Below are positions 1-64,000 of a stretch of DNA of 64,000 nt, in pieces. The position numbers were made by a program, and so were the translations under genes. Every line of letters starts with the position of its first letter. Within the stretch, counting starts at the first letter, position 1. Source of the DNA: Bilabrum cf. latius (lineage: Eukaryota); NCBI GenBank assembly GCA_965178125.1, contig OZ237736.1, positions 744,001 to 808,000 on the forward strand, in the 5' to 3' direction. Under the pieces are notes generated by a model. The model did no database searches, was not told the DNA's origin, and saw only the letters and a list, made by a program, of their open reading frames with translations.

Positions 1-1728
1 CTCGGCGTCCCCTCCCCCGCCGCTCGCAGTGTCGCTGCCAGACCTGTCGGGGGACCCATCCCGGCTTGAGTCTGACGACAAGCGGTGTCTCCTACCGCCA
101 GACCTGCTGCTTCCTCTGCGCATACCACGAGGCGAACGATTTGGGGAGCCTTCTGAGCTTTGCACTCTAGGGGCTGGGTCGTGCTTTCGCCACGCACCGC
201 GAGGCTGGCTGGGCTTTGAGCTCCCGCGGTGCGATGAATGCACGCCATCGCCTGGTACCCCTCGAGGCGACGTAGAGGATGATCTTTCTGCAGATGCGTG
301 GCCCTGTGCCCCCTCTGCACCTCCACCTTGGCCCTCACCGAATAGGGTAAGCGTGGTAGTTGGCGCCAGCACCATGTCGGCCTAGTGAGCGGAGGTGGGC
401 CTGGATCCCCCATGCACTCCATCATCACCGATACCGCCGCCCATGACCTCCTCCTCCTGCTGATCATCATTTGCATCATCATCATCGTCCTTGCCCTCGC
501 CTGACCCAGCCGCCACACCTGACGGAGCCACCCGGCGCTTCTGCCTGACGGGCGTTGCTTTGCCTCCCCTCCCTGAAGGCGGAACACCCAGTTTCCTACC
601 TCCATGGCCCCCCACATCATCGCCGCCAGTGCCCGCGCCCGCGCCCATGCCCTTGCCCGCGGCAGTGCCAGGGCCCATGGCAGCCGACCGCGCTGCTCCC
701 TTGATGGCGGCCCGGCGAGCCGCCGCCTCCAGCGCCTCTGCAGGCAGCTCGAGACCCAGCTCCGCCGCCCACGCGGCCACAAAGGGCTTGCTGAGCACGG
801 TCATCACGGAAGGCCTCCTCCTCGAGTCCCTGGTCAGCAGCTCGTCCACAAGGCCCCGCAGCTGGGGCGAATACTGCGTCCTCGAGATCGGTGGGTACGT
901 CCCTTGCAGGATCTTGAGGATGAGCGCCCCTTGATTGCGAGCGTCGAAAGGGTGTCGCAGCGTGAGTAGCTCGTATAGGATGCAGCCCAGTGCCCAGCAG
1001 TCCGACTTTTGGTTGTAGGGTTTCTCGGAGAGCAGCTCAGGGGATAGGTAGAATGGGCTGCCGGTGAGCGTCCGGCTGAACCGCGTCTGCGTGGACAGCA
1101 GCTTGGCGACGCCCAAGTCTCCCACTCGCACCCGAATGCTGCGTGCCACGGATCCGTCTGGGTCGTCAAGCAGGTCTGGCGGTCCGCTGGTGCCGCCACT
1201 AGATTTTGCTGCATCGGCTTCTAAAGAAGTGCCAGCGACTAAAAACACGTTGGCGGCCTTCAAATCTCGGTGCATAATTCTATGCGAATGAAGAAACGCC
1301 AAGCCGCAGCATATTTGGATGAATAGGGAGCGCACCATCGTCTCTGGCAAGAGCTATCCACGGCGGGCCTTCAGGGCGCGGTGTAGATCCCCATCGCACA
1401 GCTCCATCACGATGCAAAGAGCTTCATCGTCCACAAACGAGTCGAAATATTGCACCACGAACTCGGAATCCATCCTGGCAAGAATTTGTGCTTCCCTGGC
1501 TGCTTGAGCTTGCTCTTGGTCCGAGAGGTCGCTGATATCGACCTGCTTCATGGCATATAGCCGCCCAGTCTCAAGCCTCTCCACGCAGTGGACCGATCCA
1601 AATGAGCCAGAGCCTAACTTCTTAAGGAGCTTGAAATCTGATAGTTTGCTCATCTCTTGCGGTTGCGACTCTCCCCTTGCACCACCGGTTGCAGGCGATG
1701 TGCTAGCGGCGTCACCCGCTCCAGACAT
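1..1728 (-). CDS. NIMA-related (NEK) Ser/Thr kinase, 3' end runs off the window
   Basis: GSGSFG, YAMK, HRDLKAANVFL, GDLG, GSPFYLSPE, PYNQKSDCWALGC motifs. ORFs 1354-1815 and 382-1350 are in one frame joined by TAG at 1354 (RRG*LLPE). A second TAG is at 382 and the frame stays open to base 1. Start at 1728 is inferred. Confidence 0.92.
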
Positions 1729-1947
1729 GATGCCGAAGAGTCCAGTCCGGCGAATCAAGTGATAATGAACGCAGTCCACGTCATGATGGCGCGTAGGCCA
1801 CGCGGTATGCTTCATGTTTTCCCGTTCGAACGGCTTGCTTGAATTGGCACGCTACCACCGCCCAGGCTGGATGAAAGCGGTGGCTTGGCCGGGCCACACT
1901 CCGCTCCTGGTGGTCGGACAGCGCCAGCTTAGTGTCAATACATTACG

Positions 1948-2329
1948 ATGGCAGCATCAGGCGCAGGAGAAGCCACTAGTGAAGGCTCACCACAGCAATA
2001 GTTTAGCGCTCAGGTGGCTCTCTCATTTCAGTCAGAAGCTCACGCTGAAATGGCTAAGAACAGCATGGAAGTTGATGATGAGGTGCACCCAGAGAAAATT
2101 TAGCGAGACTACCATGTCGATGGGAGCACTCTTCGGGTGTAAGGCTTCAAAAGGCTACCGTACCGACGATTGCAGTTCTGGACAATGAACAATTTACTCC
2201 CAAACTTTAGCTTGGCTCAGGCACCGCAGCAATATCCAGGGGTCTGATGCTAAGTCGTTGCGAATTGGTGTTAGCACATGCTTGGACATGGCGGCCGTCG
2301 TGACGAGGACACTGCAAGAGTTCGCATGA
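1948..2329 (+). CDS. PCC1: Pcc1/LAGE3-family KEOPS complex subunit, 2 exons (intron 2139-2229)
   Basis: Manual translation: MAASGAGEATSEGSPQQ*FSAQVALSFQSEAHAEMAKNSMEVDDEVHPEKI*RDYHVDGSTLRV|NIQGSDAKSLRIGVSTCLDMAAVVTRTLQEFA-TGA. This fits the Pcc1 pattern and size. TAG at 1999 and 2101; GTAAGG...CGCAG intron. Absent from the ORF track. Confidence 0.8.
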
Positions 2330-2419
2330 TGGGACCGTTTCGCCCCGCCGGCGGCGGCGCTGTCAATGCCGAAAGCGAATCCCGCTGTCAGGGTCCTCTG
2401 TCTCGACAGCAGCAGCCGT

Positions 2420-4225
2420 TCATTTATTGATGCCGGGCGAGTTCGTCACCACCTCCCCGCCCTCCATGCGCCTATGGCTCCCGCTGGTGTTGCACAGCAG
2501 AAACCAGGCGACCATGCCTAGGCAGCAGAAGAGGGTGATACCAAATAGGGCCCCGAGAGCGATTGTGGAAGCCTCGAACGCATCGTTCGGCTGCTGGTCG
2601 AACTCGAGCTGGAACGCCGCCGAGTTTGCCTCCACGAACATGCTGCCCAGCGCCCAGCCCAGGTCCTCTGCAGCAGGGGCCACCCGCACCCTCCCCGGCT
2701 CATCGGAAGGCACCTTGAGGCCATACTTGAGGAACACGTAGGCGTACGTGGTTTGGAAGCAGTACTGCACCAGGAACTGGTCTGGCACGCGGGGGTGCTG
2801 CTGCTTGGCCTCGGCGAAGGTCAGAGCGCAGTACTGGGCGGCCTTGACGCCTAGCTGGTCGATGGTGGCCGTGTCGTTGTCGAGGCCATGGAAGCTCCAC
2901 AGGAACGAGTACTGCGAGAACGCCACGAAGGTTGTGTTGGGCCCGATGGGGGCCTGGTACGTGCCCCCTACCGCACAGGTGCTCCTGTTCCGGCTTGGGT
3001 AGGGAACACCGGCCGCCTGGATTGGCACCACGTCCAGCTGCACGCTTGCGCCGGGGCCGCTGCTGTATAGCGCGGCGTTCACGTCGTCGTTGTCCACGAC
3101 GTCGTCGTCCTGCGCGTCCATGCCGGCCCCTGCCTCCGCGATCGACTGCAGGAGGCTCAGATCAACGTCGTGGCTGTCGGATGCAACCACGCCGATAAAG
3201 TCCTCTTCCTCGCCTTCATTCTCTGGCATCAGGAGCGCGTCTGCGAGAGAATTCGACTGCCCCGGCCAAGCGATGGAGATGGAGGTGGGCTCCTTGGGCT
3301 CGGTGAGGCAGGGGGCGTCTAGCTGCATGAGAGCGAGCACTGCGGACTCGCATGCGGAGTAGTTGCTCGAACCCTGGAAGCGGGTGGGCAGGCCGGCCGT
3401 TACCGCCGCGGAGAAGTTGAGGCTGCTGCCTTGCAGGAAGCAGGGGTGCGAGATGTTGTCAGTCGGCGCGAGTCCCTGGCCCCCCCTCTGCTGGATTACC
3501 TCGGTCGCGCGGTAGAGCGCCTCGTTGATGCCGTAGTACAGGTAGCTGTGCGTGTACAAGGTCTCCTGGACCTGCTCGCCCAGCTCCAAGGCGAAGGCGT
3601 TCTGCAAAATGTTGGGATCGTCCGGCTTGAAGGTGATCTGCGCGCTTGCTCCACCGAGGTCCAGTGCCCCAACGGTCCCTTGCAAATTCTGTGGTCTCCC
3701 GGGGATCAGCTTGCCGTTCAAGTAGTTGGCAGATATCCAACCAAAAATTCCCTCTTCTTCGCCACTGATCACCCTTGCCTGCGACGGCGTCCTGTAGTCA
3801 AAGCCTGAGCCTGCCAGAATCTGACGAACCGTTGTCATGATGCTCTCCTGAACAGCGATGGGCTAGATGCGAAGACCAGCAGTAGCCTTCACAAAAATTG
3901 GGGTCTCTGCCCAGACCTCTGCTCCCCCTTGAGCTAGTTCGGTGACGTTGTTTTGGGCATAGTCAATAAGGGATTGCAGCGCGGTGATCCCCTCTGGCTT
4001 GTCGATCCCGGGCGACCGCCTCAGCGGCGACTCCAGTACTTCGATCGGGGTTGTTAGGGGAACTGGAAGGCTAGCAAAATCCCTCCTTGGCCAGCTGAAT
4101 ATGTGCAGTTTTGTGCTCGTGGACCCGGCATCCAAAACTACAGCAAAAGAGCGAATGCGGTCGCTATCTGAGGCAGAAACAAGGGCGACAGTCGCAGCAG
4201 CCAGTAGTAAGTGCGTAGCTTGCAT
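2420..4225 (-). CDS. GDA1/CD39-family NTPDase (apyrase) with signal peptide and C-terminal TM helix
   Basis: Apyrase conserved regions DAGSTST, ATAGLR, GEEEGIFGWISANY, DLGGASAQ, WALG. One in-frame TAG at 3863 joins the two ORFs. Ends TGA. Confidence 0.92.
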
Positions 4226-4455
4226 GGTGATAGCCAACCAAAGGCCTTGGGGCTTGTGGATCCGATGAAAATAGATGCGTGACGTTGTCTACCCAGCTGA
4301 TGCCGGAAGTGCACCCAACTTTCGAAGCCCTGCGTTCCGTGGTGGTGGTAGCACTGTGCTGCAGCAACTGGCCAACAAGCACGCACAGGACGTCTTCACA
4401 AGCATCTAAGCATGCACTGCCATCACCGAGGAGGCGAGGGCAAGCACTCAAGCGG

Positions 4456-9122: not shown

Positions 9123-9230
9123 CACTAGCGGAGCTTTCGTTCGTTCGAATGACAACAAACAAAACAGTATTTACAATAACAACAGACCAATCCGCAAGGC
9201 TACACCCCGCTTGCGCAAGCAAGGCCGTAA

Positions 9231-12200
9231 TCAGAATTTGGCATCCCAGCCGCTGCCGTCCTCCGCATACGGCTCCCACGAGTCGTCCTCATCATACTCG
9301 TCGAAGTGCCTTGTGTCCAGTTTGCCCGCCACCTGGGGCACCCACGGCGCAGCGATTCTCTTGTTGCGGAGCGCCACCCAGTCCACCGAGGAGAAGAAGG
9401 CGTGCCTCTGCACGTCGAGGCCACCACCGCGCAAGCAGCCGAGCCTGCGGTGGGGATCTCTAGTGAGCAGCTTCCTGACGATGTCCTTGCTGGCGTCGCT
9501 CCCGAAACCGGGGGGAAAGTCCACGTTGCCCCGGATGATGTTCCTGCAGATGGCCACCTGGTCCCCGTCGTCCCCGTCGTTGAAGGGGGAGTATCCCGCG
9601 AGCATCTCGTAGAGGAGGACGCCCATGGCCCACCAGTCCACCCCGCTCGAGTGACCCTCGCTCAGCACCAGCTCCGGAGCCAGGTACTCGGGTGTCCCAC
9701 ACATGGTGTGCGTGCGCCTGCGCGTCACCTTGGCAAACCCGAAGTCGCACACCTTGAGGTAGCCCTGCGTGTCGATCAGCATGTTCTCCGGCTTGATGTC
9801 CCGGTACAGGATGTGCTTCCGGTGCAGGTGGTCGAGCACGTCGGTCACGCAGGCGCAGTAGAACCGCGCCTCCGCCTCATTCAGCCTGCCATCTCTCTCC
9901 ACGTCCTGCATCCTGGAGAAGAGCTCGCCTCCCTGGACCAGCTCCAGCAGCATGTACAGGCAGTTCCTGTCGCGGTACGTGTCGTACAGCCGGATGGCGA
10001 AGGGGTGCCTCAGTGCCATCAGCACCTTCTTCTCGGACATTATGTTGCGCTCCTGCCGCAGCTCCACGATCCTGCTCTTGTGAAGGATCTTGAGCGCAAA
10101 CGCGCGCCCGCTGGCCTCGTGGTGCACCAGCCTGACCCGCCCGAAGCTGCCCGTGCCCAGCGTGGCGCACTGCTTCAGCTCAGCCAGAGGTATGCCCACC
10201 CTCTGCCAGGACCTGCCGGCCGACTCCCTCTCCCTGCCTGGCCTGGTGGACGACGCGTGCGCCACTGGGCCGTTGCTCACCGTGCCGGTGCCTGCGGAAC
10301 CGCTATGCATGCTCCCGGCGATTCCCGCGTTTGTCTGCTCTAATGCGGTCTTGAACGCTCCAGAGAGGCCCGGTTTTTCCGTTACAGACCTGCGGATGGG
10401 GGCACCGCCACCGCCACCGCCACCGCCACCTCCACCTCCACCTCCACCTCCACCTCCACCTCCACCTGAACCTCTAGTGGGCCCCCGGCCGGCACCAGAA
10501 GCTGGGCCCTCCGCCACGGCCTAAGAAGCTGATGTGCCCGCATCCGACCCACCACTCGCATTCGGCTCTGGTAGCGTTGTTTGGTGCGCCACAGTCGTGT
10601 GCGTCAGTACAGAGGCGGCATCTCCCATGGCCTACATGGAGGCGCTCTTGTGCTGCTGCCCTTTCGACCCATCCGCCGCCAGTCGAGCCTCCAGCTGCTC
10701 GCCGTTCAGGTCCGACGTTGGTCCGCGGTCCGTGCCTCCTGTGATCGTGCTGTCTGCATCCACCGGCTCTGCTCCGATGACGCCGTCCACATCGTCGATC
10801 TCTCGCTCGTAGTCCCTCGTCTGGTTGGGCGACCGGGTTGAGCCGAAGGTGGACCTCTGCACGAAGAAAGACGGTGGGCGGGACGAGGCGACGGCTTGCC
10901 CGCCACTAGCAGGCCCAGTCCCGCCGCCCGTCTGCTGTAATCCATCCCGACCGTCAGCCATGCTGCCGAACGAGCCGTTCCTAGACAACCCGGGAGCTGG
11001 CTCGCCCTCCCCACCGGAGTTGGCCGCGTCTGGGTGGTGGCGGCCACGACCGCTGCTCGTCTCATCATCGCCCGTCCCCTTGCTGGACGCGCCTGCCCCT
11101 TCGCTGCCCTTGGTGGCCATGCCCGTGCGATCTGTCGACACGGCCGCTGTGCCGGAGTCGCCACCAGTCGGTGCAGAGTAGGCGACGCTCGAGCCGCTCG
11201 CCGCTGCGTCTGCGGCACTGGAAGACTGCCCCAGCATGCCCTTTTTCTCGATCTACTTGAACTGAAGGAGGGAATCTTTCCCTGCCAGCAGCTTCTCGAA
11301 TGATTCCTTGTCCAGCACGAAGCACTGCAATGGCGTTACCGCTACCACAGAGCAGCCGGGCGGGTCGCCAGACTGGAGCTCCACCTCGCCAAACCACCTG
11401 CCGGCATCCATGCAAAACATGGGAGCGTTACCTTCCGGCAGGTACGGAGCGTACTGCTTGTAGAGGGACAGAAGGGGGCTGTCTGCGTGCCCCTTTGTGT
11501 CCTATGGGATCGGCTGCCCCGGCAGCGCCTCCGTTCCGTGCGCCTCCACAGCAAGGCGGCTGGCCACGTCCGCGTCGTGGTGGCAGACGAGTGCGGTCCC
11601 TTCCTTGATGATGAAAAAATGCGTCAGCTCGACGTCTTGCTGCGCGACCATCTGGCCGGGCTCGAAGGAGACCAGGGTGAGCGAGCCGAAGAGCTTCTGC
11701 CGGTCGTCCGTGGGCAGCTGGGACAGGATCGGTACGCAGAGCAGCAGCCTCATCCCCATGTTGTGTTCCAGCAGCTCCCTGAGATGCCCCAGGATGTTCT
11801 CGAAGTCCTCCCTGCTCAGCGCGACCAGAACGCTGTCCTCCTCGGCGAAGACATCTGCAGCCCTCGGCTCCGAGGTCAACAGGGCCCGCTCTCCCACGTA
11901 GTCTCCCGCGGTCAACCGGTTGTTGTTCTGCTTGCCACCGATGTTCTTGCACACCACGCTGCCCTCTTCAATGATGTAAAAGACTTCCCCTGGCGTGCCT
12001 TTCTTAATGATGTGGGCCCCTGCCTGGTACCTGTGCACCGTGGCAGCATGCGCGATGGCGTCGATCTGGTCGTCCTCGAGCTCCTCCAAGATGCCGCGCC
12101 GGAGCGTGCGCTTGAGGCGCTGGTGCTCCTCGTGCCGAGCATTCGCAACGACTCCCCGGAACGTTTCTCGATCGATGAAGAAGAGGATTCCATCGGTGGC

Positions 12201-13029: not shown

Positions 13030-13153
13030 CGTGATGTAGGCGCAAGTGTCAGCGGGTGAATCAAGCTGAACGCTAAAGCGGAACTAGCCGGCGTCCTTGC
13101 GCGGCGCCGTCTCGTCTATCTCGATCCGTTGCAGACAGTCAACAGCAGGAGGT

Positions 13154-15837: not shown

Positions 15838-15902
15838 TCGAGTATGCGAGAGCTGAACAGGCGCACTGCTATGACTTGCTTGCAACCAGAGTCACAAAAG
15901 GA

Positions 15903-17873: not shown

Positions 17874-17979
17874 CGAAGTGAGACTTGTCCGTGAATTCCA
17901 GATTCTAGTCAAATATGAACGCAACAAACAAGACGAAGGTTCGTCCCATTCGGTCTCGCCAAACCAGCATTTCAGAGTA

Positions 17980-51776: not shown

Positions 51777-54700
51777 ATGCACCGTGCTCACGAATCGTGG
51801 AGACACTGGTCGAAGTGGAAAGACGCAGAGATTCGTACAAGCCACCTTTTGAATCGTCCGAATGACAACCCACTATGTTGGTTGTAGCTTGCAGGCCAGC
51901 CCATAGTTGGATAGTTGGAACGCATTCCAGGTGGTGGCTCTGGCGTCAGTGTCATCGGGGAAAGTTGCATGGGATCTGCATGCCCAGTGCAGTTCGATTT
52001 GGATTTACCTCACACTGACAGCCCGTCAATGAGAATATGGGAAACGCTTAAGCCAGTTTTACCAGCCGTTTCAAGCACGGGTAGGGTTGCTTTTGAGCGC
52101 TCTGGTCACCTGGTTACCTTGGACTTGCGCAAAGCGTCCAAGGCGGACCTTGCTCCGGACGCAGGGCCAGCTGCCCGATCCCGGCAGCTACAGACAGTTT
52201 CGTCCATTAAGCTCAAGTAGCCTCTGTAGCAGTATAATGTGGCTCAAGCAAGCGTCTCCTCTTTTGCAGCTTGGTCAAGGGACGAAATGGTTTGGGTTTC
52301 CCATTATGGCGTGTTGCAGTTGGTCGATTGCCGCGCCGGCAAGCCGCAAATGGTAGTTGGGGCAATGGGCGACTCCTTCATTGCCAGAGCATGTGGCATG
52401 GCTTGTTTGTCAGGCGGACATGCCGGCAGTGGGGGCCCTTGGGATCCGATTGTCATGGCAGCAGCCCACGTCAAGAGCGAGCAAGATGCCGCTCGCCCGC
52501 AAGGACAGCACCAGCCTGAAGGGCAGGCACAGGAAGCTGAAGATGTCCAGGCCGGTACCATGCGGCTATTTGACATTCGGGGCAAGGGGGCGTCCTACAC
52601 GCAGATCCTGCCGCCGCCGCTGCCCCGCGAGTTCCGCAGCGCCTACGGCAAAGCTTGTGCTGGAGTCTCGAACCGCGGAGGACTTGGCACTCCAAGTGCG
52701 GCCTCGAGCAGCTCTAGTATTGCAACCGGTCCGATGGCTGCAACCACCGGCAGCGCGTAGGACGAGAGCAGGGCCGAGCAACTCCTCACCAGCCTGCAGG
52801 CGCACAGCCAGCTTTCCTCTCACCTGAGCTACCAGCTCACAGGGTGCGACACGGGTGCCGCGATTGGGCTCGCGTATCCTCGAAGATCGTGCGTTGTCAC
52901 GGCAAGCGAGCTCAGGACCGCGATACAGCATGCCTCTGTGATCCCTGTCGGAAAGGCGTTTGAGGACGACGACGTGGCGGTGCAGTTGGTGGGCGATCCA
53001 GTGCCTTGTGACCCTTTCGGTGCGATGCAGGGAAAGCGTTTCCCATCTAACGACCATGACTCCGGGTCAAACACACCGGCTACCCTGTCGGTAGGTGGGA
53101 TAGCTCGTTCCGGTACCAGCGATAGCGCCAGCCGGCAGGTTTCAGTGCCTTCTTTACCCGCTAGCTCACCCTGTGCGGGCGAGGCTGAGGGCGATTCGGC
53201 GACGATCGACAAGCGCGGAATCTCTTGCTAGAGCGATAGTGAGAGTGATAGCGACGGCATAGACGAAGAAGACAGCCTCCTCCGCGTGCCCATGCTGGTG
53301 CGAGCCACTCGGTCACAGGGTCGTCATATGTCGCTGCTCAACCCCGAGCTCTCTCACGACGGGCGTATTCTTGCCCTGTGCGCGGATGGAGTGGGCGTGC
53401 TTGTGGTAGACAGCGGCACGATGAGAGTGCTGGCAGAGTATTCACCCGCGCTGGAGGGGACGAGCCGTGCGGCAAGCAAACCTCTACGGTCAGAGGTACC
53501 TCGGCTGTCCTAGTTGGCAGACTACCAACACCGCACTGGCTTGGCAGTGATGCGGTCGGGGCTGTTGCCGCGGGACGCAGACGGGGCACAGGCACTGTGG
53601 AGCCTGCAGAAAACGTCTTCAAGAGTAGTTTTCCCACCGAGAGGGCTTGCGCGAGCGTGCCCTGCCGACGTGCTCGGGGCACTGGTGTATCGCAACTGCG
53701 CAATGGTGCTGCGGTGGCAGCCGCGTCTGGCACCAATGTTGAAGCAGCTGAGAGCAACACCGCATGCTATCACCAGTACGAAGCGAACAACAAGCGGCGC
53801 AGCTGCTCCACTACGAGCACCTAGAGCAGATTCAAGGCATAGCAAATTATTGGGGCTAAAACGAACGAGAGAGTGCATCGGCAGCAGCAGGGCCAAACCA
53901 ACTCGAATCGGCCGTGTGTCCAGCTCTGGCGAGGGGCGCCACGTGCACCTCCTGCCCTCCCCGGAAAAGCACGAGGCTGAATACACGTCTGCAGAGTTGG
54001 TCGGGCTGCAGAACACGGGGTGGAACTAGGACCCGCAGGACCTCACCCCGTTCGACTGCTCGTACCACAGGGGAGCATGCGACTAGATGGTGTACGTGTG
54101 CATCACTTGCATGCACAACAAGCAGGCGGCTCTGGTCGACCCAGTTGCGGAGACTGGGGATGACCTCCAGGCGCGCGTTGGCAGGGAGGTGTGGGTCGCA
54201 GACCCAGTCTACACCGATACGGCGAGGCAGGCCATCCAGACTGCATGGAGGCGAAGTGACGGCTCCTGCAGAATGATGAGCCCGGCTGCTTCGCGTCGCA
54301 TACGAACGGCCGTACAGCTGGACTGCTTGCTGGCCAGCGGATCAATCGTCCCGGGTGCCTCTCACGTAGCGCCAGCTTCTGACAGCGGACTTCGGGCCAG
54401 CCGCTCTCGTGACATAGGCCCCTGTGAACGCTCCATACGAATGGTGGAGAACGATGTGCAAATTCAGCGCGAGTGTACCGAATTGGGCGACCCTGGAGCG
54501 TTCGTGAAGCGCATTGCAAGCATGCCTGAAGAGAGCAGCGGGACCTTGAAGGCAGGCATCGTTCCGTTTGGCGTGTGCATCTCGTGCGCCATGAATTGCC
54601 ACGCGCGGAAAGGTCACGAAATCATCGAATGCCAGGCCTCCATGTTCCCGACAGAGCTCGGCGTAGTGAAAATGTTCCGTTGCGATTGCGGTACTGCACG

Positions 54701-56120
54701 TTCGGGCTGCTCCTGCTTGATTAAAGACCCTGACAGCGGCCACATCGGGTCTTTCAACGAGGAAAACAACTCACTGTACAACTAGAACTTCTTTCTGCAG
54801 TGGTGCTACTGCGGCCAGCCCATGCGCGATGGAGTGGGCATGGTGCAGTGCGCGAGGTGCTCTGACTGGTTCCACGACTCGTGCCTCATGCAGGGCGCGG
54901 GTGGATCGGGCAAGCGCCGTGAGAGTGGTAGCGAGGCAGGGGCACCGGTTGCAGCCTCTGACACGACCGGCAGCAGCCCCATCAGCAGCAGTAGCAGTAG
55001 CAGCTCTCATGGCGTGTATCGCGGACCAGCCCAAGCCTAGCATAGCATGTCTATCAGGTTGCCCGGTGGAGCAGCACGCCCCACATCTCTCGCTGCGGCA
55101 CTCCAGCAAGAAGGCAGGTACGCCGACATGGTAGACCGGCTAGACTTTGTGTGCAACGACTGCCTGCATGCAAAGCTCTCGGTGCCTGGGGCGAGTGCCC
55201 TGGGTCTCTGCATGGGATCTCGACGGTCCTCCGGCCGCTACGGAGGTGGAGCAGACAGCCGGGGTCAACGACCCGCTGCCTCTGCAACAGGTGGAGCAGA
55301 CAGCCGGGGTCAACGACCCGCTGCTTCTGCAACAGGTGGAGCAGACAGCCGGGGTCAACGACCCGCTGCCTCTGCAACAGGTGGAGCAGACAGCCGGGGT
55401 CAACGACCCGCTGCCTCTGCAACAGGTGGAGCAGACAGCCGGGGTCAACGACCCGCTGCCTCTGCAACGCCTGCTCCTCCCGACGACGGCGGCGACTGCA
55501 TCAGGGTTTTTTGTGACGACGGCTCGGGTGTTCACTTTATTGTGTTCCCCGGCGGAGTGCTGACGTCCACGAAGGGCCAGCTGGAGAACCTGATTGGTTC
55601 GAGCACCGAAGCAAGCGCTTCAGCCGGGCAGGGGAGTGCCCAAGCGGCTGCAGGCTTCTTGTAGGCTGCCAGGGACTTGCTGGGAGCATTGGGCGATCCA
55701 CAGCGATCGTTCCGCGGGCATGATTCCATTCGAGACGGGCAGATGGCGGTGTGGAGTCGAGAGTGCAGCGCGCTGCTAGCAGACGGCACGTCAGCTGGGA
55801 TGAGCGCGAGGGGGCACGCTGGGCACTTGGCGGGAAGCGAGGCCGAGGGCGGTGATGATGAAGATGACAACGATGATGATCCCAGCGATTCCCTCTTGCG
55901 GTAGCTCCAGAGCCGCTTACTTGGCAGCCTTGAAGGAGGCGAGGCAAGTGGGGCAGATGGCGACGGCGACGGGTCTGGGCTCGGATCGGCTGTCGGTGAT
56001 GCGGGCCATGGCTCGGGCGCTGGGCCACCTAGTGGTGGCGAGGGGATTGTTGCATTAGCTGGGATCATTGATGGGGTGATTCGAGACCTGGATGAGGGCG
56101 ATGGTGACGGGTCTGGGTGA
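51777..56120 (+). CDS. 1,447-aa protein with unrecognised N-terminal half and UBR7-like UBR-box plus PHD-like finger
   Basis: Continuous frame with 13 TAGs and no TAA/TGA. CSYHRGACD*MVYVCITC, GVCISCAMNCH..HE, FRCDCG, YN*NF..WCYC..P, MVQCARCSDWFHDSC, FVCNDC. Confidence 0.78.
55245..55469 (+). repeat. 45-bp minisatellite x5 encoding GGADSRGQRPAASAT
   Basis: Units at 55245, 55290, 55335, 55380, 55425; nearly identical; no spacers. Confidence 0.97.
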
Positions 56121-57042: not shown

Positions 57043-58266
57043 TCACGTTGCATGCCAGTTCGCAAGGACCTGCGCCAGCGCGCTCGCAGCCAGCAGCACC
57101 CATGCAGCTGCAGCCAATCCCCTTGTCGCGGTGCGTGGCGCAGCCCCCCGCTGCAGGTGCAGCACCTGCACCCCCTGCAGCATGGCGCCGTCCATGCCCG
57201 ACTCGCACGGTAGATCCCCGCCCTACATCCTCGATTTAGTCTCCCAGCCATCAGGGAGGACGCTCCCTGCTGCGGGCTGGCATGGGCTTGAGACGCCCCT
57301 CTCCCCCAGCCTGTAGACTGCCATCGCTGCCGTGTCGCCAGAGCGAGACAACTTCCACACGGCACAAGACACACGCTATTCGTCTTCATCCAGAAGCACC
57401 AGGACCTCATCTTGCACCGAAGCGCCCAGGAACAGCGCCCTGTCTGGCATGTGGTCAGGCGCGCTAGCACGATCTCCGTTCTGGCCCGCCAGTGAGGTGC
57501 GTCTGAGCACTTGAAATCGGGTGCCTTCAAAGTAAATCTAGGCTCCTCTACCCATTGGATATTCTATGGAGCTGTTTAAGCAAGTAGGTCTTGCAAGCAC
57601 GACGGTGCCACCCGGTGCATCTGAGTCGCTGGCCGGTATGGAGTAGCTCGATAGTATGCTACTGGCTGTCCAAAGGCCTTCCAGGGACGGCAGCACAGCA
57701 TCAGGCTACGCAAGCACAAGCTGCATAAAATCAGAATATACCAGGTTCTACTGTGTGTATAACCCTTCGCAGTACGAGCGATGGCGCATCAAAGCAGAAT
57801 ACGATTCTGCCTGGTCCTTTGGAACGCCAGCTTGCGCCGCTCTGCCGTGAAGTTCGACAAAAGTGAGCAGCCCCGAGTCAGCGTCAAGCTCTACGAAGGC
57901 AAAAAAGGTTTCCGCGTTGTCTTCTCGCCATTTTAATATGGAATTCTCAAAAGTTAAGACCCGTCCGTGTCTGGATGGCGTGCCTCTGCGGAATAACCTC
58001 GCACTGCCACTGATGAATCCCGACGTAGCAATCGCTGAAATGGTGACGTTCTTTGGAGATAGCTTTATGGAGACATTCGGGATGAGAATATCAGCGCCTG
58101 AGGCTACACAGGCGATCGAGGAGTCTCTAGTAACGTCGGCGTAGCCGGCCCCCGTCTGCATCGAGCCTACCCACACGCCCTACATCGGCCTGGGAACGTC
58201 AATGCTACGACTAATGATGAGGTTGATCAGTATGAGCAGCATCAGCATAGCATTTGGTGCCTTCAT
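57043..58266 (-). CDS. Hypothetical secreted protein with hydrophobic C-terminus (TM or GPI signal)
   Basis: MKAPNAMLMLLILINLIIS signal-like start; ~6 TAGs; ends GLAAAAWVLLAASALAQVLANWHAT-TGA. Confidence 0.68.
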
Positions 58267-58448
58267 GGAGTGCCTACTCAACATGTGCTCGCACCTATAT
58301 CAGATTTCGACCCAATTAACACGTTACGAAAATCCAGACATTTGAAAATGCCAAGCGTAAACTGGCCAATCAGAGTATTTTGATTGATAGCACGCGGCTT
58401 GAATCGTGTTCAGAATTCGATAAATTATTCTGACGAAGGGTCTGACTC

Positions 58449-61400
58449 ATGTCGGAACTCGATCGGGCTTCCCAGGGTGAAAGCAGCCCACCAAGAACGG
58501 CTACACGGCAACTGGAGGACTTTTTGTAGAACGAAGAAGACAGCGGCGTAGATGATATCGGTATTGACAATGATAGTATTGAAGGGAGCGACATGTAGAG
58601 CGAGCCGGAGGGTGAAGGCACCTAGGGTGGGCATGTAGACCGCCTCCAAGAGTTGCTCGAGGATACCCAAGCTTTTGGCGGCAGCAGGTAGCAAGTGCCC
58701 GAGTCGACCGCATTTGGCGCTGGTGGAATCAATATATCTGCTGCGACTAGTGCGTCGGAGCTAGACCGGTCTGGAGCTCGTGAGAACGAAGAAACTCCGT
58801 CGCCGGGTCACACGAGCGGGCTTCGGCGCGGCCACGATTCCTGGATCTCACCAGACGGCCACGGAGGTATCAGCATCGGTCGCAGGCTTGAAACTCCCCC
58901 ATCAGACGCAAAGAAGGCAGGCCAGGCTGCCCTGGCAGCAAGCACCGCCGAACCGTAGCAATCGGCGGCTGCAAATCCACCTTCGCCACCTGCAGGGGAG
59001 GTTCGGGACTTTGGCGAATTGAAGGGAAATTCTCCGATGGAAACCAGCGACCAAGCTCCCCCGGCAGCCAGCGATCGGGCCGATTCCCATGCCTTGAAGA
59101 ACGACGGAGCGACGATCGGCGGGAGTGGTCATGAGCTGGAGGGGCTGCTCTCGACGCTCGAGCACACGGCCAGGGGGCTGGATGGCGAGGGCGGCGGGCA
59201 GGGTGAGTGGGGTGACGGCCTCGCCGAAGGGCAGGAGGAATCATCGTCAGATAGCACGGGTGGAAGAACTGGCCGCACCGGCAGTCGTGACTAGTAGCCC
59301 GTCTCGCAACCGATCGGCGAGTCCGCCGCAGCTGTGAGCCTATCTGCTGTCACCCACGACACGGCAGGCTCGGGCAATGCAGCGGGGACACGCCATGCCG
59401 GTGCCGGTGCCGGTGCCGGTGCCGGTGCCGGTGCCGGTGCACCTGTCCCCTCGTCCTCTCCCTCCCACAGGCGGCTGCGGGTCTCAAGGTCTGTGTGGCT
59501 GCAGGCCCAGCAAGTGGCCAGCTCGGTGGGGGTGACGGTCCTGAGGGGAGTGAGGCCAGGCACGCCCACTTCGGCGGGTACGCCTGCCGACGTCGTGTCT
59601 GTGCCGGAATCGGCGGTACTCAACGCATTCCAGCGTCTCTCCACGGAGATTTAGGAAGCTCGCCGACGAGCCGCCGCTGCTCGGATCGCGGGCGACAGCG
59701 AAGGAGCCAGCGGGGGGACACCGAGAAGGCACCGGCTGTCCCAGTCCATGCGATCCACGCCGGGCACTCGAGGCAGCAGGAGCGAGAGAGAGGCTGCGAG
59801 CGAGCTGGCTGCTCTGCGGCGGCGACTCGACGAGGCGCACGATAAGCTGAACGCGCAGGTCTCGAAGAGAAAGGCACTGGAGCGGGAGCTCAAGATCAAG
59901 GACGCGGCGGCAGGCAAGACGAAGAAAGCCGCCGAGTAGTCCACCTCACGGGCTAATGCCAGGGTCCGCGCCATCTAGCAGCAGATGCAGGCGGCAAAGG
60001 AGGAGTCGCAGCGCATGGTAGACAGGGCAGTGCGCCTGGCCAAGGAGGCCAACTCGAAGGCCAGCAAGGCGGCCGCCAGCACCGCACAAGAAACGGATCG
60101 CGCGGATCGGGCGGAGGCCGCGCTGGCCCATCTGCGCCAGTCGGCTCGTCGGAGCGGTGCCGCTGGGGCAGCATCGTCAGGATCAGACGCCGATGGCCAT
60201 CGGTCGTCGGAAGCAGCAGGAGAAGCAGGTTCCGCTGACGGGCCTGTCACGCCAACCCGTGCCGGCGGCAGCGGAAGCGGCCCGCCCGGCATGTCTGGCT
60301 CGCCGTCGAGCCGCACACCGCCGGGGCACTCCCCCCTGCGCCCGGCAGGCCCGTCTGCAGGCGGCCTTGCTCCGGCCCAGCAGCACGGTGAGCTGATTGC
60401 AGCGGAGCGTCGGCTGCGCGAGACGATGGATCTGCTCAAGGACGCTGAGAGAAGGGCAGCGATGGCGGAAGGCGAGCTCAAGGAGGTGCGCACTGACATG
60501 GAAGACCTCAGGAAGCAGCACAGGAACGAGACCAGAGAGCTGCAGAGGCAGCTGCAGCAGTCCAAGGAGAAGAAGGAAGTGGCCAGGCTCCGTGGCCTGC
60601 TGGCTGCTGCGGAGAGGGGCGAGGAAGAGGCAAAGCAGAGGCTGGCGAGGGAACAGAATACCGCTCGTGATGATGCCGCGGACCTCAGGGAACAGCTCAG
60701 AGCCGCCATGAAGGAGCTGCGCGAGCTGAGAGAAAAGCGAGTAGCTATGGACGGCGGTGCCACAGGCGCCGAGCCGTCGCCTGCGGGCAAGGGTGCTGGT
60801 GACGAGCCCTTGTAGGCACCAGTCGCAATGCAAGACGGCGCCATGCTGCCCCCTTCCGACGCCCAGGTGCTCCGTCGCCGCGCCGAGGATGCCGAGGGCC
60901 GGGCGCTCGCCGCGCAGCGAGACAGGGATGATCTCAGGGAACAGGCACTCAAGGATGCCGAGGCCCTGCGGCAGCGGATCCAGGACCTCGAGCGGGCCGG
61001 GCGGCTGCTGCACAAGGAGCAGGACACGTCTCACGCCAGGGAACGGCGGCTTAGGGAGCTGACCGCCGAGCTGGTGCAAGCCAAGTCCCAGGCGAACGAG
61101 ACGGAGCACCGCATGCAGCTGCAGGTAGACGACCTCAAGAAGCGCCTCAGGGAGGCGCAGGCAGAGGGCGCCAGGCAGGGTCCTCGCAGCGCTGCCTCCG
61201 CCGAGTATGTTGCGGAGCTCAGGCTCCAGGCCAAGGACGCCGATCGGCGAGCGGGACAGGAGGCCCGGAGGGCGGAGGCAGCGGCGTCCGAGCTGCGCGA
61301 GGCGAAGGACAGGGCGCGCACACAGGTCGCTGAGCTGCAGGAGAGGCTCAAGTCCGCGCAGAGGAAGGCGCGGCAGATGCAGCATGAGGCGGAAGGGGCC

Positions 61401-63395
61401 AGCAAGAAGCTGGAGCAGGAGGTGCAGCGGCAGGTCAGGCAGAAGGAGAGGGAGGTGCGCGTGTTCCGAGAGGTCAGCGGCAGGGCACTGAACGCGACGA
61501 GACCGCAGGACCAGGAGCTCCTCGCCGTGGTGCGCGTGCTTGAGGGAAGGGCCAGCGGGCTGGAGCGGGAGGTGGGGGGTCTCCGGGAGCAGCGCGATGT
61601 GATCGCCAAGGCCCTCAGCAAGGCGTGCGCGGGTCTTCGCGGCGCCGGGCAGGACGCGCTCGCGGTGGAGGTGCAGATGGCAGTCAGGCGAGCTCAGTTT
61701 GCCGCTGCGGGAGGCTCGCGCCATTCAGCGGGGGATGCTGGCAAGGGCGGGGCAAAGGGCGGGGCAATCGGCGGCTCCACCGGCGGCTGGGACGTGCAGG
61801 ACGTGCGAATCGACGCGGTGCGCGAGCGGCTGGCGGCGGAGCAGGAGGGCATGCGGGACCGCGAGGAGGCGCACGAGGCAGCCAGGGAACACGCCACGGA
61901 GCTGGCCGCCTCGCTGGCCGAGGAGGTTAAGCGTCTGGAAACAGAGCTGGCGGAGGTGAAGGGCGAGAGAGATGCACTCCGAGTTGACCTTGGCGCGCGG
62001 CCCTCTGTCCGTCAGTGGAGGGACTCGAGGCGGCAGGTGGAGGAGCTCGAGAGGAGGGTCGAGGCAGCCATGGACCTGGGCGTGACCGTGGAGCAGCTGG
62101 ATGTGAGGTCCAGGGACCTCACTGCAGAAGAGAAGGCGAGGAGGAGGCAGACGCCGACCGCGGTCCTGGCCCGGTCGGACCGCCTGGCGCACAGGCTCGG
62201 CCTGCAGGTGATCGACGCGCTGCCGAGGGACGTGTGCACGGGAATCCTGAGGGAGATCTGCGTGGCGCTGGAACTGTCGGACCCTTACGCGGCTGCCGCG
62301 GGCGTCCGCACCTTGGCGCGTGTGGTGCATGGCCTGCCTCCAGTGGAGGCGTTTCTCTCTGATGCGGTCGAAACCATCTGCGAGGCCACATACGGGCTGC
62401 CTCAGTTTGATGGGGACAGGGCCAGGGGGGCCGAAGCGGGCGCACAGGGCGGCAGCGGGGCAAGTGTCCCGCCGATGCTGCGGGGAGAAGCGCTGGCTGC
62501 GGTCCTGCGGCGCCTGCAGTACATGTGTGACGAGTGCAATCGGTGCGGGGAGCTGCTGCAGCTGCGGCGGCAAGTGGAGCGGGAGCTAGGCGCGAGGGAC
62601 AGAGCTGCCGTGGAGCGGCTCAGTGATATGGACAGGGCCAGAGATGGAGGTGTGGCGAGTGATGGTGTGACGAGTGCGGATGGGTTCACCGATGCTGGGA
62701 TCGTCAAGGCTGTGCGGGGGCTAGTCAGGCTAGAATCAGCTGCGAGCCAACACGGCGCTGTGTACGAAGCGGCAGAGGCGGCGCAGCGGGGCGACCGGAG
62801 CGTGCTGAGCAGCATCGTGAGGCATTACCAGGACCTGTTTGAGGTGCCGAACCTGCAAGGAACGTTCGCCAGCATGTCTCAGCTTCGCTCTGCTGCTTCG
62901 GAGCACACGGCCCTCATGGCTTCACTCCGCGTGGAGCTGGGTCTCCGCGCGGGCGCTGGGGTGGGCCCTGGGTCCGTGGTGGCGGCTGTCCGGCAGCTGA
63001 AGAAAGAGGTCGCGAGAAGCTCTGCAGCGGATGCTGGCGCTGCTGCCGGGGCTCTGTATGCCCTGGCTGGGTCTAAGAGGGCCAGGGGCGCGAGTGGGGC
63101 CGCCAGTGTTCTCCGGGGGGAGGTGCCTGGTCGTGCGCAGGGCAAGGGCACGGGCCAGGGCCAGGAGGCCGGTGCGAAGGGTGGCGTGGTTCGGTCTTCC
63201 GTGGGGGGACTTTCGGCTGCCAGGGGTGAAGATGGAGTGAGAGATGTTTAGGAGGATCGGGTGATGGACGGTGCGGGTAAGGTCGAGCACGGGGCAGCAG
63301 TGTCATCTGATGAGGCTGCTCGTCTTGGCGAGGGTGCTGCGGGCGGTGTTGTTGTGAGCACGGTGCGGGATGCAGCATCTGCTGTTACTGGGTAA
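58449..63395 (+). CDS. 1,648-aa coiled-coil protein with CEP70-like C-terminus
   Basis: One frame with 12 TAGs, including tandem TAG-TAG at 59292. Long heptad-like regions; IVRHYQDLFEVPNLQGTFASMSQL resembles the CEP70 C-terminal motif. Ends TAA. Confidence 0.75.
59397..59438 (+). repeat. (GCCGGT)x7 coding microsatellite (Ala-Gly run)
   Basis: Directly visible. Confidence 0.95.
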
Positions 63396-63573
63396 TGTTG
63401 TGAGTCTGGAAATCTTTGATGTTCTCTGTACAAAATGCACCATGGCAAAAATGCGCGGCGCCTAGTAGTACCGGCGGCCAGCAGTAATGCCGTGCGGAGC
63501 CGGACCGAGTGCCAAGGCAACTAGGCCACTCGCTTGCTGCAGGCTCAATCAGGCCTGATACCTACTTGCAAGT

Positions 63574-64000
63574 ATGAGTTCATAGAAGCCCAAAGACTCT
63601 CGCGCAGGCGCGGGTGCATAGGTTGCGCAAAGTAGTCGATCCAAAAAGAAGGTTGCTTCGTTTCCCGCGGCGGCTTTTGACGAACTGGCAGAGCAGCTTG
63701 CTGCTGCAGGATTGATCCGGGCAGAAATAAGATCTCGATTTAAAACGTATCGGGATGCCACGCGCGGCTCGGATGTGGTAGCTTGGCTGCTGGGCCGATA
63801 TGGAGGCCCTGGCGGTCTGTTGCGATCAAGAGGAGCAGCATGCCGCCTCGTGCTAGAGTTGATCCGGCGATCCACGCTAATTCCAGTAGGGGGAAAGATT
63901 ATTGCTTCGGCATCGGCTATTGATAGCGAAGACACAATCATGCGCCTATCAGAGAAATTCGCTCATTTCAGGAAGCAATCCGACGTGTCTTCCATCGTCT
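63574..64000 (+). CDS. DEP-domain-containing protein, 5' part only
   Basis: MSS*KPKDSRAGAGA*VAQ...IRSRFKTYRDATRGSDVVAWLL...SRGAACRLVLELIRRSTLIPV fits the DEP pattern. Frame is open to the window end. Confidence 0.65.

What the first reader, a model, noticed from the sequence alone, without database searches (positions are those of the whole stretch)
1..64000. Non-canonical nuclear genetic code: TAG is a sense codon (most likely Gln) while TAA/TGA remain stops
Seen: about 117 in-frame TAGs (manual count) in 21 of 22 gene models on both strands. The flanking ORF pieces are always in frame, no internal TAA/TGA is needed, and recognisable C-termini (BBS5, kinase WDAKF, Pcc1, DUF711) end in TGA. 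Established: UAA and UAG are usually reassigned together; UAG-only reassignment is rare (UAG=Gln in the fornicate Iotanema and some phyllopharyngean ciliates, UAG=Leu in a rhizarian). Inference: this GC-rich flagellate does not resemble those lineages, so it may be an independent origin, needing a tRNA-Gln(CUA) and an eRF1 that ignores UAG.
Basis: partly seen in the sequence, partly recalled or inferred. Interest (0 to 1): 0.97.

Follow-up and report, generated by a model that had tools for sequence, protein, structure and literature searches.

The report
UAG read as glutamine in a protist
This GC-rich flagellate genome uses the stop codon TAG as an ordinary glutamine codon while TGA and TAA still end genes, a rare form of genetic-code change that here seems to sit in a lineage where it has not been described.

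Summary
In 19 ORF models I counted 113 in-frame TAG in 18,514 codons and no internal TAA or TGA. Freeing TAG alone lengthens the longest ORFs from 903 to 4,581 codons; freeing TAA alone does almost nothing. The genes are real eukaryotic genes.

TAG is neither an artefact nor edited. Three runs carry GT..AG-spliced contigs that match the DNA letter for letter. These contigs cover 38 of the 41 TAG sites in the 20 kb laid. A syntenic relative (L001) also has in-frame TAG.

The amino acid is glutamine.
- One TAG sits in a column that is Q in 113 of 120 homologs.
- Relatives 92-95% identical have Q at 3 of 3 covered TAG sites.
- Relatives' ORF fragments end just before window Gln codons.
- Likelihood and Pfam scores rank Q first.
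- One site favours Leu.

TAA is absent from 12,918 confident codons, against 17 expected if TAA were Gln too.

This is the NCBI table 15 pattern in a 60% GC genome that mainly stops at TGA. It resembles neither the described ciliates nor Iotanema. The tRNA, eRF1 and exact lineage could not be tested.

The parts
1..1815 (-). NEK-like protein kinase, 3' end runs off the window; 2 in-frame TAG
   Evidence: Pkinase E 1.9e-58; best PDB match NEK1; TAG positions
1843..2139 (+). Pcc1 exon (gene only partly modelled); the stop-to-stop frame holds 3 TAG
   Evidence: PF09341 Pcc1 E 1.1e-7; ORF listing
2420..4423 (-). GDA1/CD39 nucleoside phosphatase, ends TGA; 3 TAG. The TAG at aa 187 (3863-3865) is the one site where homologs favour Leu
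   Evidence: PF01150 E 2.5e-59; PDB alignments show L at that column; Pfam score L 173.6 against Q 169.3 bits
4456..7335 (-). Arabinofuranosidase-like glycosidase, ends TGA; 4 TAG (aa 92, 199, 528, 718)
   Evidence: PF22848. Relative P0291 (92% identical) has Q at aa 528; Q in 2 of 3 homologs at aa 92. Relatives' ORF fragments end just before window Q594, Q354 and Q550
9231..13323 (-). cGMP-dependent-type protein kinase (cNMP-binding domains plus kinase), ends TGA after ..WDAKF; 9 TAG; GT..AG intron at 12318-12429 joins the two ORFs in frame
   Evidence: Pfam; spliced joint 12317>12430 in runs X5 and X7 but not in DNA run X4; intron ends and TAG coordinates
13154..14283 (+). BBS5, ends TGA after ..LWKV; intron 13228-13319; no TAG
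   Evidence: PF07289 E 8e-134; joint 13227>13320 in X5, X6 and X7; the spliced reading restores the conserved N-terminal VWQDREIRFD
14476..15837 (-). Protein of unknown family (g9), ends TGA; 3 TAG, one of them at the same aligned position as a TAG in L001
   Evidence..LRRIXHWEFP.. against ..LRRIXYWEFP..
15903..17873 (-). Low-complexity protein of unknown family (g10), ends TGA; 7 TAG
17836..20895 (+). GH2 beta-mannosidase, ends TGA; 4 TAG at 18229, 18346, 18568 and 20431 (aa 132, 171, 245, 866)
   Evidence: Pfam; aa 171 column is Q in 113 of 120 homologs; P0121 and P0245 (95% identical) have Q at aa 245 and aa 866
21122..26533 (-). DENN-domain protein, ends TGA; 15 TAG; an upstream GT..AG intron at 26836-26952
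   Evidence: PF02141; joint 26835>26953 in X5 and X6
27288..29078 (+). DUF711 protein, ends TGA; 3 TAG
   Evidence: PF05167 E 1.4e-44; the L001 ortholog has TAG where the window has Q in ..GVGLQLVGVLA..
32661..46208 (-). Giant 4,515-aa surface-type protein (F5/8 type C, Kelch, cadherin, TIG/IPT, C-terminal membrane region), ends TAA; 15 TAG and no TAA or TGA in 4,581 stop-to-stop codons
47714..50344 (-). Protein of unknown family, ends TGA; 7 TAG
51777..56120 (+). Protein of unknown family with a 45-nt tandem repeat, ends TGA; 13 TAG
57043..58284 (-). Protein of unknown family, ends TGA; 6 TAG
58449..63395 (+). Coiled-coil-like protein of unknown family, ends TAA; 12 TAG

Best explanation
The window is nuclear DNA of a GC-rich, gene-dense, intron-poor flagellate. 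In it UAG has been reassigned from stop to glutamine, and UGA (mostly) and UAA still end translation. This is the pattern of NCBI translation table 15.

Shown here:
- TAG is frequent in frame in real, transcribed, spliced genes.
- It stays UAG in the RNA.
- It aligns with Gln in close and distant homologs.
- TAA and TGA never occur inside the coding frames.
- At least one syntenic relative has the same feature, and probably a wider clade does.

Inferred from established knowledge, not tested: UAG is read by a tRNA-Gln with anticodon CUA, one base away from the normal CUG. That anticodon pairs with UAG but not with UAA, which is why UAA can stay a stop. The release factor eRF1 would have lost or weakened its recognition of UAG.
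For: (1) ORF structure. Freeing TAG alone gives ORFs of 4581, 1910, 1649 and 1448 codons, against 903 at most under the standard code. Freeing TAA alone gives 964. There are 113 in-frame TAG in 19 models.

(2) Real genes. NEK, GDA1/CD39, PKG, BBS5, GH2, DENN, DUF711, Pcc1, sybindin and TPR all have Pfam matches.

(3) Not an artefact or editing.
- DNA run X4 and runs X5-X7 match the window with 0 other letters in the listed pieces.
- X5-X7 carry three canonical GT..AG joints that X4 lacks.
- 38 of the 41 model TAG sites in 9001-29000 lie in such pieces.
- The spliced BBS5 reading restores the conserved N-terminus.

(4) Gln.
- The GH2 aa 171 column is Q in 113 of 120 homologs.
- Relatives at 92-95% identity show Q at 3 of 3 covered TAG sites.
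- Of 6 database proteins whose C-terminus falls inside a window protein, 3 end just before a window Gln codon.
- For 35 window/L001 TAG partners, Q has the best log-likelihood: -106.6 against L -119.2. In conserved context it is Q -53.2 against E -55.6.
- Pfam bit sums over six domains are Q 719.8, K 716.5, L 715.9 and E 715.2.

(5) TAA and TGA are stops.
- 0 TAA and 0 TGA occur in 12,918 confident codons. 17.3 TAA would be expected if TAA were used like CAA (P about 3e-8).
- L001 has 0 against 14.0 expected.
- 13 of the 15 models checked end in TGA and 2 in TAA. GC3 drops after every stop except two where the drop is small.

(6) Shared with a relative. L001 is syntenic at 67-84% nucleotide identity and has 23 in-frame TAG in 2,693 codons.
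Against: - One well-conserved site (GDA1 aa 187, motif ATAGLRI-X-P) aligns with Leu in the PDB NTPDases shown, and scores 4.3 bits better as Leu.
- The overall Pfam margin for Q is small, at 3.3-4.6 bits.
- In the window/L001 comparison, L is as frequent a raw partner as Q (6 each of 35) before correcting for abundance.
- The model set was defined with TAA as a stop, so 'no in-frame TAA' is partly built in. Both TAA-ended genes have a TGA 8-13 codons downstream.
- Whether some genes truly end at TAG cannot be told. DENN and g9 have a TAG 4 and 10 codons before their TGA.
- The runs are Logan contigs whose RNA label is a guess (X5 is marked 'probably DNA'). Contigs also drop rare variants, so partial editing is not excluded.
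- No tRNA, eRF1 or peptide evidence.
Confidence: 0.9

Rival explanations
1. UAG is a sense codon but stands for leucine (as in the rhizarian exLh and some TARA phyllopharyngean ciliates) or for another residue such as Glu, Lys, Ser or Tyr.
For: GDA1 aa 187 aligns with Leu and scores 4.3 bits higher as Leu. DENN scores 0.7 bits higher as Leu. L is the raw partner of TAG 6 times in 35 window/L001 pairs. In conserved context E is only 2.4 log units behind Q.
Against: The GH2 aa 171 column is Q in 113 of 120 and never L. Relatives at 92-95% identity have Q at 3 of 3 sites, where the true residue should be kept about 9 times in 10. Q beats L by more than 12 log units. Pfam sums put Q first. Relatives' ORF ends fall on window Gln codons.
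Confidence: 0.03
2. Both UAA and UAG mean Gln (the common UAR=Gln code, table 6), and TAA is only rare because the genome is GC-rich. UGA would be the only stop.
For: TAA is the rarest of the three triplets (403 against 950 TAG on both strands). The two TAA-ended long genes have a TGA 8 and 13 codons downstream, so reading through TAA would change little.
Against: 0 TAA in 12,918 confident codons against 17.3 expected from the CAA:CAG ratio, and 0 against 14.0 in the less GC-rich L001. TAA occurs out of frame at 3.5 per 1000 within the same genes. Freeing TAA on top of TAG lengthens the top ORFs only slightly (4581 to 4754, 1910 to 1934). GC3 falls from 0.73 to 0.52-0.55 after the two TAA stops.
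Confidence: 0.03
3. UAG has two meanings: Gln inside genes and stop near some gene ends, depending on context as in Condylostoma or Blastocrithidia. It could also be read by very efficient near-cognate decoding with the ordinary tRNA-Gln(CUG), without a dedicated suppressor tRNA.
For: Nothing in the window excludes it. DENN and g9 have a TAG 4 and 10 codons before their TGA. No tRNA(CUA) was seen, though only 73 kb was scanned.
Against: No model needs TAG as its stop. Every homology-anchored C-terminus (BBS5, PKG, DUF711) ends at TGA. In Iotanema, all 81 candidate terminal UAGs were judged sense (passage read in PMC5304391), so a clean reassignment has precedent.
Confidence: 0.1
4. The TAGs are not translated: they come from assembly or sequencing errors, pseudogenes, unremoved introns, or UAG-to-CAG RNA editing.
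For: None found. The only caveat is that the laid runs are contigs, which hide rare variants.
Against: Four runs from three studies agree with the window letter for letter. The spliced contigs keep TAG at 38 of 41 sites, and the three introns found remove no model TAG codon. 17 of 19 models are affected while TGA and TAA are fully excluded. A relative diverged at about 70-77% nucleotide identity shows the same pattern.
Confidence: 0.01

Closest known systems
Iotanema spirale (Fornicata): UAG=Gln, UAA and UGA stops (Panek et al. 2017, PMC5304391; abstract and passages read)
   Same: The same code table: only UAG is reassigned, to Gln. UAA and UGA are kept as stops, with no sign of dual use.
   Different: UAA is the predominant stop in Iotanema; here TGA ends 13 of 15 checked genes. 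No metamonad appears among the named best hits for BBS5, GH2 or PKG. That the window's gene content points to an aerobic ciliated cell is my inference. An eRF1 T32G change was reported there; eRF1 could not be examined here.
Phyllopharyngean ciliates Hartmannula sinica and Trochilia petrani, and Protocruzia tuzeti: UAG=Gln (McGowan et al. 2024, PMC11687900; abstract and passages read)
   Same: UAG alone is reassigned to Gln, inferred from in-frame UAG at conserved Gln positions. The proposed mechanism is a CUA-anticodon suppressor tRNA that cannot read UAA.
   Different: In those ciliates GC is 27.4-53.6%, and UAA is the most used and UGA the least used stop. Here GC is about 60% and TGA dominates. 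The only named ciliate hit (Stentor PKG, 37% identity) lies outside the window's PKG clade. The window is at least 64 kb with about 20 genes, and the DNA run has contigs up to 212 kb.
Rhizarian exLh and TARA phyllopharyngean MAGs: UAG=Leu (PMC5304391, PMC11687900; passages read)
   Same: UAG alone is reassigned and UAA/UGA are kept. The rhizarian case is also a non-ciliate protist found by in-frame UAG.
   Different: The residue is Leu there. Here Q is favoured over L by more than 12 log-likelihood units and by all three close-relative sites. One site (GDA1 aa 187) looks Leu-like.
UAR=Gln codes (many ciliates, Hexamita, Streblomastix, ulvophytes, an aphelid; as listed in PMC11687900)
   Same: A stop codon becomes Gln, probably through a mutated tRNA-Gln.
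   Different: TAA is not a sense codon here: 0 observed against 17.3 expected.

Membership tests
Table-15-type nuclear code (UAG=Gln; UAA and UGA stop) | Frequent in-frame UAG inside conserved, expressed protein-coding genes | tested here: met
   113 TAG in 19 models. The genes have Pfam matches. 38 of 41 sites lie in spliced-run contigs identical to the DNA.
Table-15-type nuclear code (UAG=Gln; UAA and UGA stop) | UAG positions correspond to Gln in homologs | tested here: met
   Q in 113 of 120 at GH2 aa 171. Q at 3 of 3 sites in relatives 92-95% identical. Q ranks first in likelihood and in Pfam sums. One dissenting site, GDA1 aa 187, favours Leu.
Table-15-type nuclear code (UAG=Gln; UAA and UGA stop) | UAA is not a sense codon | tested here: met
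   0 in 12,918 codons against 17.3 expected; L001 0 against 14.0. Two long genes end at TAA. The test is partly circular because the models were built with TAA as a stop.
Table-15-type nuclear code (UAG=Gln; UAA and UGA stop) | UGA is not a sense codon | tested here: met
   0 in frame against 18.2 per 1000 out of frame in the same genes. 13 of 15 checked genes end in TGA, including the homology-anchored ends of BBS5 and PKG.
Table-15-type nuclear code (UAG=Gln; UAA and UGA stop) | UAG is no longer used to end translation | tested here: inconclusive
   No model needs a TAG stop. However, TAGs 4 and 10 codons before the TGA of DENN and g9 cannot be classified.
Table-15-type nuclear code (UAG=Gln; UAA and UGA stop) | A cognate tRNA-Gln with anticodon CUA | not testable with these tools
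   No tRNA gene in the window or in L001, no Rfam match, and no whole genome held.
Table-15-type nuclear code (UAG=Gln; UAA and UGA stop) | eRF1 N-domain changes that weaken UAG recognition | not testable with these tools
   eRF1 is not in the window.
Table-15-type nuclear code (UAG=Gln; UAA and UGA stop) | Gln found at UAG sites in peptides | not testable with these tools
   Needs proteomics.
UAR=Gln code (table 6) | In-frame UAA at Gln positions | tested here: not met
   No in-frame TAA in the window models or in L001.
UAG=Leu code (rhizarian exLh type) | UAG positions correspond to Leu | tested here: not met
   L log-likelihood is -119.2 against Q -106.6. No L in the GH2 aa 171 column. Close relatives show Q, not L. 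Only GDA1 aa 187 favours L.
Context-dependent codes with no dedicated stop (Condylostoma type) | All three stop codons occur in frame as sense codons | tested here: not met
   TGA and TAA are absent from the coding frames.

The most novel reading that the evidence does not exclude
This would be an independent origin of the rare UAG-only-to-Gln reassignment, in a lineage with no reported stop-codon change. Two single-gene trees lean to heterotrophic stramenopiles and one to acanthoecid choanoflagellate-like sequences. The change would be shared by a clade of at least two to three environmental taxa. It would have arisen in a GC-rich genome whose main stop is UGA, the opposite background to every described UAG=Gln lineage, where UAA is the main stop.
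Probability: 0.55. Interest if true: 0.82.

Novelty: new member of a known kind. Interest (0 to 1): 0.72.

Why it matters
UAA and UAG nearly always change meaning together, and cases where only UAG is reassigned are few. The ones named in the passages I read (PMC11687900) are:
- Iotanema;
- Protocruzia;
- a few phyllopharyngeans;
- a rhizarian;
- Scotinosphaera;
- one oligohymenophorean.

A further origin outside these groups adds a natural replicate for asking how eRF1 can drop UAG yet keep UAA and UGA. It is also a test of whether a CUA-anticodon tRNA is always the route.

The background is unusual. In the described UAG=Gln lineages UAA is the dominant stop. Here the genome is 60% GC and stops mainly at UGA. 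That bears on models that tie reassignment to a codon becoming rare.

There is also a practical point. Standard-code gene callers cut this organism's and its relatives' proteins into pieces. Database entries such as P0121, P0245, P0291 and P0296 look like such fragments. Environmental protein catalogues therefore under-represent and mis-model the clade.

DNA and spliced RNA-derived assemblies already exist in public runs. The tRNA, eRF1 and phylogenomic questions can therefore be answered directly.

Tried and rejected
- Whole genome: none is held for this window, so no tRNA(CUA), eRF1, 18S or genome-wide codon inference was possible.
- tRNA scans of the window and L001: none found. Rfam at gathering threshold: no match.
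- First metagenome scan, with the 4,515-aa protein: 55 pattern matches, none confirmed. The second scan, with P0001, gave one locus, L001.
- NEK and PKG TAG sites fall in variable columns and say nothing. DUF711 has no PDB relative, and its Pfam scores hardly separate residues.
- Tandem repeats: none shows TAG/CAG variation between units.
- Neighbour-residue enrichment around TAG: Q is 1.35-fold, but I and F are higher, so it is not informative.
That protein stays uncharacterised.
- Earlier findings of this scan: nothing by place, relatives, words or sequence.
- Organism names for the closest unnamed hits: none on record.
- Lineage placement from three single-gene trees conflicts, so I name no lineage.
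- Literature: five full-text searches found no report of a UAG reassignment in stramenopiles or choanoflagellates, or in a GC-rich flagellate.
- No listed holder run is on record as RNA. The RNA nature of X5-X7 rests only on their spliced joints.
- Parts of the laid stretch without RNA-contig cover (3 of 41 TAG sites) are not evidence either way.
- Joints 9959>11938, 15184>23824 and 19051>20136 have 20-31 letters on the short side and non-canonical ends. I take them as repeat or low-complexity artefacts.

Full report
**What is in the window**

The 64 kb are about 60% GC throughout. They are densely packed with eukaryotic genes on both strands. Those with family matches are:
- a NEK-like kinase;
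- Pcc1;
- a GDA1/CD39 nucleoside phosphatase;
- an arabinofuranosidase-like glycosidase;
- an EF-hand protein;
- a cGMP-dependent-type kinase with several cNMP-binding domains;
- BBS5;
- a GH2 beta-mannosidase;
- a DENN protein;
- DUF711;
- a TPR protein;
- a 4,515-aa multidomain surface-type protein;
- sybindin;
- a FAM177-like protein.

Several further long proteins have no family match. Introns are few and canonical. There is no tRNA or Rfam RNA in the window.

**Checking the observation**

Under the standard code the longest ORFs are 903, 811 and 666 codons. If TAG alone is read through they become 4581, 1910, 1649 and 1448. If TAA alone is read through they are 964, 811 and 679.

In 19 ATG-to-stop models I count 113 in-frame TAG in 18,514 codons. 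17 of the 19 models are affected, and none has an internal TAA or TGA. Two of these models are doubtful: 8561-9295-, and 30941-32689-, which lies opposite a TPR gene. Sixteen better models hold 103 TAG.

In 12 confident models (12,918 codons) TAG is about as frequent in frame (5.0 per 1000) as out of frame (6.8). TGA is 0 in frame against 18.2 out of frame, and TAA 0 against 3.5. So TAG behaves as a sense codon, and the other two as stops.

**Is it real, and is it in the RNA?**

The stretch is held by runs from several studies. I laid four of them on 9001-29000.
- Run X4 covers the stretch colinearly, introns included.
- Runs X5, X6 and X7 carry three joints that X4 lacks: 12317>12430, 13227>13320 and 26835>26953.
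- On the coding strand these joints have the ends GTGAGC..CAG, GTGAGT..CAG and GTAAGT..CAG.
- The first joins the two kinase ORFs in frame.
- The second restores the conserved BBS5 N-terminus VWQDREIRFD.

X5-X7 therefore contain cDNA-derived contigs, although the records do not say RNA and X5 is flagged 'probably DNA'.

All listed pieces have 0 differing letters. 38 of the 41 model TAG sites in the stretch lie in at least one X5-X7 piece, and no intron removes a model TAG. The caveat is that contigs hide rare variants.

**A relative with the same feature**

The BBS5 search found a 95% identical protein, P0001. Its contig L001 is 9,111 bp at 55% GC. It is syntenic with the window (kinase, BBS5, g9, g10, DUF711) at 67-84% nucleotide identity. 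Its orthologous frames hold 23 in-frame TAG in 2,693 codons, and no TAA or TGA. One TAG is at the same aligned position in both organisms (g9..LRRIXHWEFP..).

**Which amino acid?**

(a) GH2 homologs.
- At aa 171 the column is Q in 113 of 120 homologs.
- The other three GH2 sites are in variable columns.

(b) Close relatives.
- P0121 and P0245 (95% identical) have Q at GH2 aa 245 and aa 866.
- P0291 (92% identical) has Q at aa 528 of the arabinofuranosidase-like protein, with all ten flanking residues identical.
- That is 3 of 3 covered sites.
- At lower identity the partners are mixed: P0296 (56%) has Q and S; P0290 (48%) has A, Q, D and A; P0292 (78%) has N.

(c) ORF ends in the databases.
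- Database proteins were called with the standard code, so a relative's in-frame TAG should appear as an ORF end.
- Six proteins have a C-terminus that aligns inside a window protein. Three of them end just before a window Gln codon: P0291 at Q594, P0296 at Q354 and P0369 at Q550.
- The other three end before T, W and D.
- P0291 also starts right after Q280.
- Q makes up 3-5% of these proteins.

(d) Window against L001.
- Over 35 TAG partners, a substitution model built from the same alignments ranks Q first: -106.6, then M -107.7, D -114.8 and L -119.2.
- In conserved context (18 partners at 19 sites) Q is -53.2, E -55.6 and K -60.2.

(e) Pfam scores with TAG read as each candidate residue.

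| Domain | Q | L | E | K |
|---|---|---|---|---|
| Pkinase | 201.7 | 201.1 | 201.4 | 202.1 |
| GDA1_CD39 | 169.3 | 173.6 | 168.4 | 168.9 |
| Glyco_hydro_2_N2 | 92.2 | 87.5 | 90.0 | 90.5 |
| DENN | 51.6 | 52.3 | 50.7 | 50.9 |
| DUF711 | 153.0 | 151.6 | 153.1 | 152.5 |
| F5_F8_type_C_2 | 52.0 | 49.8 | 51.6 | 51.6 |
| Sum | 719.8 | 715.9 | 715.2 | 716.5 |

Against Gln: the GDA1 site (aa 187, in the conserved motif ATAGLRI-X-P) aligns with Leu in the NTPDase structures shown and favours Leu by 4.3 bits. I read this as one lineage-specific substitution among many sites. The close-relative evidence is direct and unanimous.

**TAA and TGA**

If TAA also meant Gln and followed the CAA:CAG ratio, 17.3 in-frame TAA would be expected in the 12 confident models, and 14.0 in L001. 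None is seen (P about 3e-8 and 8e-7).

The test is partly circular, because the models were built with TAA as a stop. However, the models are full length against their homologs, and the giant gene runs 4,581 codons without one.

Thirteen of the 15 checked genes end in TGA and two in TAA. After both TAA stops GC3 falls from 0.73 to 0.52-0.55, but a TGA follows within 8-13 codons, so those two ends alone prove little.

Whether TAG ever ends a gene is open. DENN and g9 have a TAG 4 and 10 codons before their TGA.

**Mechanism**

Shown: the decoding pattern.

Inferred from published work (passages read in PMC5304391 and PMC11687900):
- A tRNA-Gln whose anticodon changed from CUG to CUA reads UAG but not UAA, which allows the two codons to be uncoupled.
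- eRF1 must stop competing at UAG. Iotanema has T32G in the GTS motif, and the rhizarian has Ala at the L69 position.

Neither could be looked for here. A variant without a dedicated tRNA, using near-cognate reading by tRNA-Gln(CUG), is not excluded.

**Comparison with the known cases**

The code equals NCBI table 15. It is described for Iotanema spirale, Protocruzia tuzeti, Hartmannula sinica and Trochilia petrani. In Iotanema and in all the phyllopharyngeans studied, UAA is the main stop. Phyllopharyngean GC is 27-54%. Here GC is 60% and TGA is the main stop.

**Lineage**

- BBS5: named best hits are stramenopiles and assorted protists. The tree puts the window with an unnamed sequence next to oomycetes, with weak support and a long-branch warning.
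- PKG: the window and L001 sit in a well-supported unnamed clade whose sister is the stramenopile Cantina. The Cercozoa, dinoflagellate and ciliate sequences lie outside.
- GH2: the window nests with sequences that include acanthoecid choanoflagellates.

The lineage is therefore unresolved. It is probably a heterotrophic stramenopile, and nothing points to ciliates or fornicates.

**Literature**

Five full-text searches found no report of such a code in stramenopiles, in choanoflagellates or in a GC-rich flagellate. Subscription journals and supplements were not searched.

**Verdict**

The kind of code is known; the host lineage and genomic background appear new. Interest is high for genetic-code evolution. 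It is tempered because the variant itself is not new, and the tRNA, eRF1, peptides and phylogeny are untested.

Noticed in passing
window 32661-46208 (-): A single uninterrupted 4,515-codon gene for a surface-type protein. It has two F5/8 type C (NedA-like) domains, Kelch repeats, a cadherin domain, many TIG/IPT repeats, weak Sushi and fn3 matches, and a cysteine-rich stretch followed by a hydrophobic, apparently multi-pass C-terminal region. No relative was found in the JGI metagenome contig scan.
   Followed up: partly
window 17836-20895 (+): In a FastTree tree, the GH2 beta-mannosidase nests (support 99-100) in a clade holding the acanthoecid choanoflagellates Stephanoeca, Didymoeca and Savillea. 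The BBS5 and PKG trees lean to stramenopiles instead. This means either gene transfer or patchy retention of this enzyme, or the lineage is not what the other two genes suggest.
   Followed up: partly
window 7723-7918, 10403-10467, 28645-28758, 59396-59440: Perfect hexanucleotide repeats inside coding frames give long Gly-Ala or poly-Gly runs in at least four unrelated proteins. Contigs of the runs break at three low-complexity stretches, two of which match these repeats (10394-10478, 28651-28769).
   Followed up: no
window 24652-24977 (DENN gene): A second contig form with 11 base differences and a 172-base skip (24754>24927) is present in both DNA run X4 and run X5, at depth similar to the main form. 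It looks like a second allele or haplotype in a low-complexity part of the gene. None of the differences is at a TAG.
   Followed up: no
window 9231-13323 (-): The PKG-type kinase has a roughly 330-residue low-complexity insert (Gly/Ser/Ala-rich, with a poly-Gly run) between its cNMP-binding domains and the kinase domain. The two TAGs inside it have no alignable partner in other PKGs.
   Followed up: no
window 17836-17873: The chosen ATGs of the divergent genes g10 (-) and GH2 (+) overlap by 38 bases, so at least one start is probably further in. The RNA-derived contigs break between 17868 and 17974.
   Followed up: no
L001 4169-7766 and window 14476-17873: The fast-evolving proteins g9 and g10 (45% and 29% identity between the two organisms) keep their order and orientation next to BBS5. 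In L001, DUF711 follows directly after g10, whereas the window has GH2 and DENN in between.
   Followed up: partly
proteins P0121, P0245, P0291, P0296 (database entries): Public protein catalogues hold this clade's proteins as fragments that begin or end where the window has Gln codons. This fits standard-code gene calling that cuts them at in-frame TAG.
   Followed up: partly
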